Origin: Perna viridis
Lineage: Eukaryota
Length of the DNA stretch: 64,000 nucleotides
Assembly: GCA_037379345.1 (NCBI GenBank)
Contig: CM074516.1
Span: 49,079,626-49,143,625 of the forward strand
Reading direction: 5' to 3'
The position numbers and the translations under genes were made by a program. Below the pieces are notes generated by a model that searched no databases, was not told the origin of the DNA, and worked only from the letters and a program-made list of their open reading frames with translations. Positions 45,201 through 48,200 of this stretch are shown here, piece by piece. Each line of letters starts with the position of its first letter. The first letter of the stretch is position 1.

Positions 45201-48200
45201 CAGAAAAGGAGTGATTTGATGTGACAATTAATTGACACGTTAATTGTTAACTCCTAATAAACATTTGATCTGCAGTATAAATTAAAGTTTGTTAATGCTA
45301 AATTTGGTCTTCAATATCTACGTTCAGTCGGCCTTAGCTTCCAAATTTTGTCCCATGTTTTTTTTTAGAATGGCCCATTGGAATTGAAAATATCCTACTG
45401 AATTGAAGGGTAAGGGGGCCATAGTCCCATTGGCAAAATTTAATCCCAATCACTGCATGTGGTGGTTCCTAGTGCTGATTAAATAATTTTCATAATAAAA
45501 CTTTGTTGTTGTTTATTGCCTAATTATTACTGTGACATGTACTGCAATTGCATGTATCTTATTGTGAAATGTTGGTCTAAAAAACATAGTCTGAGAAGAA
45601 CTTTTTTGCTTCTGAAAAAGAACAAGGCTGGCAGTATTAGTCTGGTTGACTATTGGACAGACAGTATTTTTAAACATTACAATGTATTTATTTTCTATTA
45701 TTATCTATAGCAGTGTTGAATCTCGGATCCAATTTTTTTTACATTCTTCTGAGCAAAGGCCAGACATGGTCTTTTCAAACTTAAGATTGCCATAATATTT
45801 TTACCAAAATTCCCCTCCCCGCCAAATCGAATGGTCGCCCTTAAATCATATTCTGTAAAAGTTTGTTTCACGTCTTGATTCGTTGTCAACACTAAAAATT
45901 CCTGCACTCGTCTGCACAAATCACAACACGTATCGAGAAAAATGACGGGTATGGGGCAATTCCAAATATGAACAGCATTTTTTGACATGTTTTCATAGAA
46001 TCTTCACATGTGTTTAGCTTTTTGTTCGGCACAAAATAATCGTTGATTGCTTTGACATTGTTAAGTCACCACATGTTTTCTATAAATGGACACTACATTA
46101 AATCATCGTAGGTTTGAGCACTTTACCAATTAGATTCCAAAGTGGTCCTCGACGAAGACATCCATATAAACAATAAATCACGATTTTAGATAAAAGCCTA
46201 CAGATGGAATGATCTTAGATATCTATTTACTACATTTTCCCTTTTGTGTTTTTTTTTTATTGCTTTTATTTTATTCTGCCGGTACCAGACGATACCATAG
46301 CCAGGTAAAAGTACCGGCTCTTAATGAAAGCTCTGTAGTATAATAATTTCCTTGCTTGCAGATTTGAGCCATAATGAACTTTTTTGTCCCTGTCTTTGGT
46401 GATGCTTAACCCGACAAAAAGTCAGTCAGCGACCGTAGGCAGCTTTCAATATTGGCCTCATTTTGACCAAATAAAGACATCAGAAGTCCTTCTCAGCTTC
46501 GAAAGGGCCATCCATATATATCTCATTTAAGAAAGCTTTTTATCCTGATAATCTCCCAAGGCATGAAGTTTTTTCCCCCCTCCAAAATACAAGTAAATAC
46601 ATTATGACTACTATTATGTGTTAGTGTACCCCATATGGTCTCCCTCCTCAGTAACTGCCACATAGTAGCTATGAGAAGGTGATGGAATATACAGGGTCCA
46701 GACCTGTACAGAACATTCCAGGTCTGGGTTTATCTTCAATGTTGTGGAACGGGAATATGCATCAAGTCTACAAGGACATTCAGCTCCCATATGCCACTGC
46801 GACAGAGCCTTACTCAGTTTGTATGTTCAAACAAGCAAGGATATCAGACATTGGAATCACAATTGTAAATCAGGGTTTTCAAAAGGAAGAGTTACTAGGC
46901 AATTTTCACTGCTATCACCTGTTAAAATTTATATTTTGTTATAGAACTCAGTGTTCTCCCCATAATTTTTAAATAGCACAGTGCTTACTGGCATAGCACA
47001 ACTCTTATAGACAGTGCTAAGAAATCATAGTGCTGCAAAGTGCAGTGCTATAATGGACTCGGGAGAACACTGTAACTTGACAGAAATAAAATCTGATTTT
47101 CACCTGTTTAAATCTTAATTTCTCCTGTTATTGAAATCCCTAGTAAAAAGTTTTAACCCCAAAAAAGGTTTGACAAATGAATATCCGATTATTGAAAAGT
47201 TGAAATGAATAGTACTGAGGTCACTTAAACTAGTTGGAAAAAATCCCTGAAATTATTAGTGTACTTTGTGATACTACCCCTAATGTTTAGAGGATTAAGA
47301 AGCATTAAGCTAAAAAAAAAAGAAAACAAGTTGCAAAGGCCCAAAAACAAAAAAAAAAAGAGGTTGGTAGGTGGGGATATTTCAATTGTCAATTACATCA
47401 TGATTACAATACATAAATAGCTGAAATGACATTTCTTTAATGTTAACTGCAACACTCTTGCATGCTCCCAAACTGGGAGTATCAATTTTAATCATTATGA
47501 GCATAGTAAGATAAGGATCCAGACGTACTGGGAGCAATCTCAATCTGGATCAGACTGGACACAATTATTTCCCCAAAATTTAAAGGGAAAAAATCCAGGG
47601 AGTTCCAGCAACAGGGAACAGACATACATTTTTTTCAAAAGTTAACAAATTTAAGTAAAATATAATCACTTAAGGTCAGAAACTTCACAGAGATATTGAT
47701 AATAAACTCATGCTTTCTTCAACAAAATGCTTCAAATACCTATAGTTAATGGTTTTTTTTCATTCTATTTCTATATTTAAATGACCTTTTTCCTATTAAG
47801 TATTTCTACTGTGGGTAAATTTCACATTTTATGAACCTGTCGCATCAAAGAATAGAAATAAATACTGTGCAAACATTCTATTAGCAAATAGAACAAAATG
47901 CAAGGGTCAAACACACATTACAGGTAATCGCCAATAAAAGGTTAAATACACACACACACACACACACACAAAAGGACTGTCAATAAAATGTTAATCCATA
48001 TACACGCAGCGGAAGTGTCAAAAGTTATCACTACAATTAGTTACGGCTTGGGCAATTTAGTGAGTACTAGTTTTAGATAAGAACAGTGTGAGAAACCACC
48101 ACTCGCCACTTCGCCAAATACAAGTAGATGTGTATTTTGGCGAGTTCTCATTTGCTTACACTCGTCAATTTGGTGACCGTCATTTGATTGGCAAGTTTCA

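What the first reader, a model, noticed from the sequence alone, without database searches (positions are those of the whole stretch)
46382..46855. Polycistronic intronic snoRNA arrangement: U17 and SNORA16 only 110 nt apart, three snoRNAs in one intron
Seen: RPS4 intron 5 holds U17 (49275-49508), U17 (46622-46855) and SNORA16-like (46382-46511), and I see no acceptor-plus-donor pair between the last two. Established: vertebrate intronic snoRNAs are essentially one per intron because they are released exonucleolytically. Clusters need endonucleolytic cuts or extra non-coding/NMD exons, or they yield sno-lncRNAs capped by a snoRNA at each end. Inference: an undescribed processing route, or H/ACA-ended lncRNAs of about 0.47 kb or 2.9-3.1 kb.
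Basis: partly seen in the sequence, partly recalled or inferred. Interest (0 to 1): 0.7.

Follow-up and report, generated by a model that had tools for sequence, protein, structure and literature searches.

The report
Mussel intron with three snoRNA genes
One intron of a mussel's ribosomal protein S4 gene carries three small nucleolar RNA genes, two of them 108 bases apart with no splice signals for an exon between them; two other ribosomal protein genes of this genome are packed the same way and flies are known to do it, so this is likely an ordinary invertebrate cluster whose RNAs are likely cut apart after splicing by a nuclease not yet named.

Summary
RPS4 intron 5 (49536-40320, minus strand) holds U17, U17 and SNORA16, all above Rfam cut-offs. 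The last two are 108 nt apart, and no GT donor follows the one acceptor-like AG. The premise fails: this is a mytilid mussel, not a vertebrate. Intronic H/ACA clusters are reported for Drosophila (PMC3089462, passages). In this genome the layout is common: RPS8 has 3 introns with 3-4 C/D snoRNAs each, and RPL10 has 2 introns with 3-4 H/ACA-type copies (2 of 8 other loci scanned). The intron-5 SNORA16 alone keeps the 6+6 bp 28S guide pocket, but its H box reads AUAUUG. Contigs from four runs showed low, unspliced cover and no splice joint; they cannot show RNA ends. Recursive-splice sites and flanking duplexes were not enriched. Likely route, inferred and untested: a spacer cut plus exonuclease trimming. 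A fused 0.47-kb RNA is not excluded (about 12%). The scan noted a 16-copy one-intron cluster on another invertebrate's DNA (e1-8074721).

The parts
49537..49708 (-). RPS4 (eS4) exon 5
   Evidence: open frame, GT donor at 49536; 93% identical to Mytilus eS4
40320..49536 (-). RPS4 intron 5, 9217 nt, host of the cluster
   Evidence: GT..AG ends, contiguous protein across it
49275..49507 (-). U17/SNORA73 copy a, 29 nt after the exon 5 donor
   Evidence: Rfam RF00045 118.3 bits; m1, m2, H box AGAUAA and ACA intact
46949..47072 (.). 124-nt high-copy element with 12-bp terminal inverted repeats (MITE-like), 94 nt upstream of U17 copy b; not part of the cluster's function as far as tested
   Evidence: inverted repeat I4; many contigs from other places pile on it
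46622..46854 (-). U17/SNORA73 copy b (internal member of the cluster)
   Evidence: Rfam 117.5 bits; m1, m2, H and ACA boxes intact; copy-specific contig 46706-46821 in run X2
46514..46621 (-). 108-nt A/U-rich spacer without an exon and without stable structure; likely place of the separating cut (inferred)
   Evidence: no donor after its AG; folding z +1.31
46382..46513 (-). SNORA16 copy in intron 5; 5' pocket at 46502-46497 and 46466-46461 pairs 6+6 with the genome's own 28S; hinge AUAUUG at 46452-46447; ACA at 46387-46385
   Evidence: Rfam RF00190 44.8 bits
40190..40319 (-). RPS4 exon 6
50789..50919 (-). SNORA16 paralogue alone in intron 3; canonical H box AUAUUA, 28S pocket broken on one side
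   Evidence: Rfam 33.2 bits, E 0.0046; 75% identical to the intron-5 copy
39717..39949 (-). U17/SNORA73 copy c alone in intron 6
   Evidence: Rfam 122.1 bits

Best explanation
Intron 5 of a mussel RPS4 gene holds two U17 genes and one SNORA16 gene with no exon possible between the last two, an intronic cluster that likely arose by local copying of snoRNA genes within the host gene and is likely resolved into three separate snoRNAs by a cut in each spacer followed by exonuclease trimming. Shown: gene structure, family identity, rRNA pairing of the guides, and the same packing in RPS8 and RPL10. From established knowledge: the snoRNAs are made with the host pre-mRNA, H/ACA core proteins protect their ends, and the debranched intron is trimmed from both ends (PMC11028025, section 3). 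Inferred: the unstructured A/U-rich spacers are opened by an endonuclease that needs no shared sequence or stem signal, as is implied for the Drosophila H/ACA clusters. U17 then serves 18S processing through m1/m2, and this SNORA16 copy guides pseudouridylation of the conserved 28S site UUUUGA[U]CCUUCGA.
For: All three genes pass Rfam cut-offs on the host strand. All U17 copies found by the genome search (3) and both SNORA16 copies lie in this one gene (only the best candidates were scored), which fits local copying. 6 of the 9 snoRNA-bearing introns in RPS4, RPS8 and RPL10 hold 3-4 snoRNAs, so this animal must routinely handle multi-snoRNA introns; most RPS8 snoRNAs (11 of 12) and all 7 full RPL10 copies sit in such introns. 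Internal copies look selected. U17b differs from the others mostly in its first 60 nt (11-12 of 14-15 differences) and keeps m1/m2. The intron-5 SNORA16 is the only one of the two copies with the 6+6 Watson-Crick pocket for the 28S site. Its upper 5' stem stays paired at 6 of 6 positions while 4 pairs differ from the paralogue. Drosophila H/ACA snoRNAs are generally clustered in introns (PMC3089462 passages).
Against: No data here show mature, separate RNAs: the four runs are contigs, only guessed to be RNA, at depth 3-11 over the snoRNAs. No cleavage signal was found: own-flank duplexes are no stronger than permuted ones (21 clustered snoRNAs, p 0.30) and no shared flank motif stood out. The intron-5 SNORA16 has a non-canonical hinge (AUAUUG), one mismatch in each lower stem and a whole-molecule folding z of -0.27 against -3.94 for its paralogue. 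I could not read the Drosophila primary papers, so how firmly an endonucleolytic step is shown there is not checked.
Confidence: 0.6

Rival explanations
1. Either-or release: no endonuclease acts. On each excised intron only some snoRNPs assemble, exonucleases run through the unprotected ones, and each intron molecule gives one snoRNA, with fused forms as unstable by-products.
For: Needs only the known exonucleolytic pathway (PMC7601244 passages on U17). No cleavage signal was found in flanks. The weak H box of the intron-5 SNORA16 would favour partial loading.
Against: Inefficient for introns with four members, where inner copies would need both neighbours unloaded, yet the inner RPS8 and RPL10 copies keep their boxes.
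Confidence: 0.13
2. Stable sno-lncRNA: U17b and SNORA16 stay fused as a 474-nt four-hairpin RNA (or 2.9-3.1 kb with U17a), like SLERT, tying an 18S-processing RNA to a 28S guide.
For: Two snoRNAs in one intron give sno-lncRNAs in mammals, including the H/ACA-ended SLERT (PMC11028025 passages). The spacer has no exon. A fused SNORA16 would not need its own 5' end protected, which could explain the relaxed H box (inference). The X4 contig runs from SNORA16 85 nt into the spacer.
Against: That contig also runs 55 nt past the SNORA16 3' end, so it reads as pre-mRNA or DNA, and no listed piece bridges U17b to SNORA16. The spacer is unstructured (z +1.31). Five other introns would have to give fused RNAs too.
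Confidence: 0.12
3. The intron-5 SNORA16 (and perhaps U17b) is a silent or decaying copy, so the intron yields one working snoRNA or a trimmed product.
For: H box AUAUUG fails ANANNA; weak folding; one mismatch in each lower stem.
Against: It is the only copy found that can guide the conserved 28S site. Its stems stay paired despite 25% divergence from the paralogue, and it scores higher on Rfam than the solitary copy. U17b is intact.
Confidence: 0.1
4. Hidden non-coding or NMD exons, or recursive splice sites, divide the long intron so that each snoRNA has its own lariat.
For: The 2.4-kb gap between U17a and U17b has candidate exons, for example an acceptor at 47310 (score 11.4) with donors at 47103, 46988 or 46918.
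Against: Not possible for the 108-nt spacer with a GT donor. Two of the 13 other spacers tested also have no candidate exon. The best exon score in the U17a-U17b gap was reached by 68% of control draws. AG|GT ratchet sites are not enriched over 14 spacers (Fisher p 0.08, 0.19 and 0.42 against three controls). A contig of X2 runs unspliced across the 47103 donor (47060-47300).
Confidence: 0.05

Closest known systems
Intronic H/ACA snoRNA gene clusters of Drosophila (Huang et al. 2004 J Mol Biol 341:669 and 2005 RNA 11:1303; titles seen in reference lists only, content via PMC3089462 passages)
   Same: Several H/ACA genes in one intron of a protein-coding gene, on the host strand, with duplicated isoforms.
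   Different: Mollusc host. The cluster mixes two families and includes the essential processing RNA U17. In this genome C/D snoRNAs are clustered too (RPS8), whereas Drosophila C/D snoRNAs are reported as one per intron.
Intronic clusters in plants and Plasmodium (PFS15/PFS16 in one intron of RPS27a; PMC2656528 passages)
   Same: Two or more snoRNAs in one intron of a ribosomal protein gene.
   Different: Other kingdoms; the Plasmodium case is two C/D copies.
Vertebrate U17/SNORA73 loci (human U17HG, Xenopus and Fugu ribosomal protein hosts; PMC7601244 passages)
   Same: Multi-copy U17 in introns of one host gene; m1/m2 motifs pair with 18S ES6.
   Different: One copy per intron in vertebrates; a different host gene here (RPS4); m1 reads AUAUUCCAU and m2 AGACCAU, against AUAUUCCU(A/G/U) and AAACCAU in all 14 species tabulated there.
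sno-lncRNAs, SLERT (PMC11028025 passages)
   Same: Two H/ACA snoRNAs within one excised intron.
   Different: SLERT arises by exon skipping and is shown as a stable RNA; no fused RNA is shown here.

Membership tests
U17/SNORA73 (RF00045) | Covariance-model score above the gathering cut-off | tested here: met
   117.5-122.1 bits against 74, 3 of 3 copies
U17/SNORA73 (RF00045) | m1 and m2 motifs that pair with rm1/rm2 in 18S ES6 | tested here: met
   m1 pairs 8 bp Watson-Crick at own 18S position 811; m2 pairs 6 bp with one G-U at 846; same in 3 of 3 copies
U17/SNORA73 (RF00045) | H box and ACA three bases from the 3' end | tested here: met
   AGAUAA at 120 and ACA at 228 in 3 of 3 copies
SNORA16 (RF00190), intron-5 copy | Covariance-model score above the gathering cut-off | tested here: met
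   44.8 bits against 35
SNORA16 (RF00190), intron-5 copy | 5' pocket pairing around the 28S target uridine 14-16 nt before the hinge | tested here: met
   6+6 Watson-Crick pairs, 15 nt from the hinge; a few other sites scored as many pairs with G-U allowed
SNORA16 (RF00190), intron-5 copy | H box ANANNA at the hinge | tested here: not met
   hinge reads AUAUUG; the intron-3 paralogue has AUAUUA. It is a SNORA16 homologue; that it is a fully canonical H/ACA RNA is not met
SNORA16 (RF00190), intron-5 copy | Two-hairpin fold | tested here: inconclusive
   whole-molecule z -0.27; each half folds into the expected hairpin on its own, -16.7 and -15.4 kcal/mol
Drosophila-type intronic H/ACA cluster | Two or more H/ACA genes on the host strand within one intron | tested here: met
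Drosophila-type intronic H/ACA cluster | No exon between members | tested here: inconclusive
   met for U17b-SNORA16; not excluded for the 2.4-kb U17a-U17b gap, of which RNA contigs were laid only on 46855-47300
Drosophila-type intronic H/ACA cluster | Members accumulate as separate mature snoRNAs | not testable with these tools
   only contigs were on offer; they cannot show ends
sno-lncRNA (SLERT-like) | Stable RNA that begins at one snoRNA and ends at the next, spacer included | tested here: inconclusive
   no listed contig bridges the pair; depth 3-11; a hole proves nothing

The most novel reading that the evidence does not exclude
U17b and SNORA16 are never cut apart: mussels make a stable 474-nt four-hairpin H/ACA RNA that joins the essential 18S-processing RNA to a 28S pseudouridine guide, and the degenerate H box of this SNORA16 marks its life as the 3' half of a fused RNA; the RPS8 and RPL10 clusters would then give a family of invertebrate sno-lncRNAs.
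Probability: 0.12. Interest if true: 0.7.

Novelty: new member of a known kind. Interest (0 to 1): 0.3.

Why it matters
As it most likely stands, it extends intronic snoRNA clusters from flies to a mollusc and shows that there they include U17 and, at RPS8, the C/D class. The one-per-intron rule is then a lineage habit, not an animal-wide one. The 108-nt spacer between two distinguishable snoRNAs is a compact test piece for the question of what separates clustered intronic snoRNAs in animals; I found no named nuclease in the passages read. If the pair proved to stay fused, it would be a sno-lncRNA outside mammals built from two working rRNA-biogenesis RNAs.

Tried and rejected
Assembly duplicate: rejected (copies differ at 14-19 of 230 positions, unique flanks). 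Recursive splicing: looked enriched against one 6-kb control (6 of 14 spacers above all draws), but not against three better controls (Fisher p 0.08, 0.19, 0.42; only 1 of 14 spacers stood out); rejected. A duplex that brackets SNORA16 (I1, 21 nt, 76% complementary): not stronger than mismatched flanks (rank 0.59; set-wide p 0.30); rejected. Relatives in metagenome contigs: an 18-base U17 pattern gave 115 stretches, none a U17 on nhmmer (one weak partial hit, E 0.008, of 115), so conservation in other molluscs is untested. Runs: no RNA holder listed as such, only guesses. In one search, three of four runs had no or almost no cover of SNORA16 and the spacer, which is no evidence; 37 loose ends and 73 pieces were not shown. 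Six of 8 other loci gave no multi-snoRNA intron (RPL3 one weak U83-like hit, E 0.26; the L4, S2, L5, L13 and S3A loci none); the L4 and L13 hits may be mitochondrial ribosomal protein genes and the stretches may not cover whole genes. The protein atlas gave no answer. Huang 2005, Yuan 2003 and Liang 2002 were not held. PMC10557570, PMC1821038, PMC12205218, PMC11014333 and PMC12745780 (passages only) added nothing on the separating nuclease or on H-box variants.

Full report
Observation. A scan of the whole window against Rfam gave 4 matches above cut-off, all on the minus strand: SNORA73/U17 at 39717-39949, 49275-49507 and 46622-46854 (117.5-122.1 bits, cut-off 74) and SNORA16 at 46382-46513 (44.8, cut-off 35). 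A laxer scan of 30000-60000 added a second SNORA16 at 50789-50919 (33.2 bits, E 0.0046). The spacer of the pair is 108 nt. With an approximate splice matrix of my own (frequencies recalled), it has one acceptor-like AG at 46580 and no GT after it, so no GT-AG exon can lie there. The U17 copies differ at 14-19 of 230 positions, mostly in the first 60 nt, and their flanks do not align; this is not an assembly echo.

Host. Exon 5 translates to a peptide 93% identical to eS4 of three Mytilus species, the best named hits among 76 listed.

Are the genes working copies? All three U17 keep the H box AGAUAA, the ACA box and the m1 and m2 motifs. Their m1 (AUAUUCCAU) pairs 8 bp with the genome's own 18S at position 811, and m2 (AGACCAU) 6 bp with one G-U at 846. 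Both differ from the forms tabulated for 14 species in PMC7601244 (passages), which states that such changes are matched in 18S. Genome searches found only these 3 U17 and 2 SNORA16, all in RPS4 (only the best candidates are scored). The two SNORA16 are 75% identical and have split traits. The intron-5 copy pairs 6+6 Watson-Crick around the 28S uridine in UUUUGA[UC]CUUCGA, 15 nt from its hinge; the intron-3 copy keeps only a broken 3' side. That this is the family's known target is recalled; PMC6984369 (passages) confirms a conserved SNORA16-28S pairing and a retargeted extra copy in Xenopus. Against full function, the intron-5 copy has AUAUUG in place of ANANNA, one mismatch in each lower stem and a folding z of -0.27, against -3.94 for the paralogue. 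For function, its upper 5' stem is paired at 6 of 6 positions while 4 of the pairs differ from the paralogue.

RNA data. The run search listed 24 runs, none on record as RNA and 21 guessed to be RNA. Four of these, from four studies, were laid on 46290-47300 only. All are contigs. X2 holds a piece with no other letter over 46706-46821, which spans positions that mark U17b, at depth 3.5. X4 holds a 272-nt piece over 46327-46598 with 1 other letter at depth 3.7; it covers SNORA16, 85 nt of spacer and 55 nt of downstream flank, so it reads as unspliced pre-mRNA or DNA. The six joints listed all fall in the repeat element at 46949-47072 and none has GT-AG ends. No listed piece bridges U17b to SNORA16. 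These data confirm the local sequence in another sample; they do not show expression level, ends or fusion, and the rest of intron 5 was not examined with reads.

Is it special in this genome? I located eight other ribosomal protein family loci, fetched 13 stretches and scanned them. Two of 8 have multi-snoRNA introns. RPS8 (G000:C14) has 12 C/D snoRNAs of three families: 1 in intron 2, 4 in intron 3, 3 in intron 4 and 4 in intron 5; all 12 carry C and D boxes, five match SNORD51-clan models, and spacers are 459-1674 nt. RPL10 (G000:C4) has 7 full copies of one H/ACA-type RNA, 3 in one intron and 4 in the next; 7 of 7 have ANANNA at the hinge and ACA at the end, though Rfam matched only one, weakly (E 0.94). 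With RPS4, 6 of 9 snoRNA-bearing introns in these three genes are clusters. The other six loci gave one weak hit or none, and two of them may be mitochondrial ribosomal protein genes.

How would they be separated? Hidden exons cannot explain the pair; two of the 13 other spacers also lack any candidate exon, and the best candidate between U17a and U17b is no better than controls (68% of draws reach it). Ratchet-type AG|GT sites looked enriched against a single control region but not against three better ones (Fisher p 0.08, 0.19, 0.42). Duplexes between a snoRNA's own flanks, which could mark an RNase III-type cut, are no stronger than permuted ones (21 snoRNAs, p 0.30), and the spacer of the pair is unstructured (z +1.31). 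I commit to a cut in the exposed A/U-rich spacer followed by exonuclease trimming up to the protein-bound ends (0.6). This is inference from the number of intact inner copies, not a shown step. Rivals are either-or release by exonucleases alone (0.13), a stable fused RNA (0.12), decay of the intron-5 SNORA16 (0.10) and hidden exons (0.05).

Comparison with what is known. PMC3089462 (passages) states that Drosophila H/ACA loci are generally clustered in introns while its C/D loci, and both classes in silkworm, are one per intron. PMC11028025 (section 3 part 1 and passages) names intronic clusters as a class, calls one-per-intron predominant in animals, and describes sno-lncRNAs including the H/ACA-ended SLERT. 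PMC2656528 (passages) reports two snoRNAs in one RPS27a intron of Plasmodium and clusters in plant introns. The primary Drosophila papers (Huang 2004, 2005) I saw only as titles in reference lists; they were not held. That two H/ACA RNAs placed in tandem in one intron stay fused in human cells (Kiss and Filipowicz 1995) is recalled; only the title was seen. Three searches listed no paper on snoRNA organisation in molluscs, judged from titles and abstract openings; the library lacks most subscription journals, so this is weak evidence of absence. No supplements were read. The scan has noted a 16-copy C/D cluster in one intron of another invertebrate (e1-8074721) and a 20-copy cassette in one intron elsewhere (e1-7359387); I did not check either.

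Verdict. Real, and a new member of a known kind. What is modestly new is the lineage, the presence of U17 in a mixed cluster, and C/D clusters in the same genome. Interest 0.3. The boldest reading not excluded is a stable 474-nt U17-SNORA16 RNA (0.12; interest 0.7 if true).

Noticed in passing
G000:C14:6898535-6909839 (L123, L133), RPS8, minus strand: Twelve C/D snoRNAs of three families, 11 of them in three multi-snoRNA introns (4, 3 and 4 copies); Drosophila C/D snoRNAs are reported as one per intron, so this may be the more unusual locus.
   Followed up: partly
G000:C4:27142603-27148921 (L132), RPL10, minus strand: Seven full and two partial copies of one H/ACA-type RNA in two introns (3 and 4 full copies); not matched by Rfam at cut-off; a conserved 8-nt block is antisense to 18S near position 865.
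   Followed up: partly
window 50789-50919: The intron-3 SNORA16 has lost one side of its 28S pocket; the same pocket can pair 7 + 6-of-7 with 18S around position 115 (two G-U, 17 nt from the H box), a possible retargeting like the Xenopus extra copy; weak.
   Followed up: partly
window 46382-46440 and 50789-50845: The conserved 3' pocket of both SNORA16 copies can pair 9+6 nt with 18S at 1278-1294, leaving AU unpaired, a register that puts A where the target U should be; unexplained.
   Followed up: partly
window, three U17 copies; L136 18S position 811: U17 m1 reads AUAUUCCAU and the genome's 18S has the matching AUGGAAUA, a lineage-specific matched change; m2 reads AGACCAU and pairs through a G-U.
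   Followed up: yes
window 46949-47072: 124-nt MITE-like element with 12-bp terminal inverted repeats, abundant in transcript contigs from other loci.
   Followed up: no
G000:C11:5366500-5410300: Only three 28S pattern matches in the assembly, one inverted to the other two, with a 200-N gap and a partial unit; the rDNA array is collapsed here.
   Followed up: no
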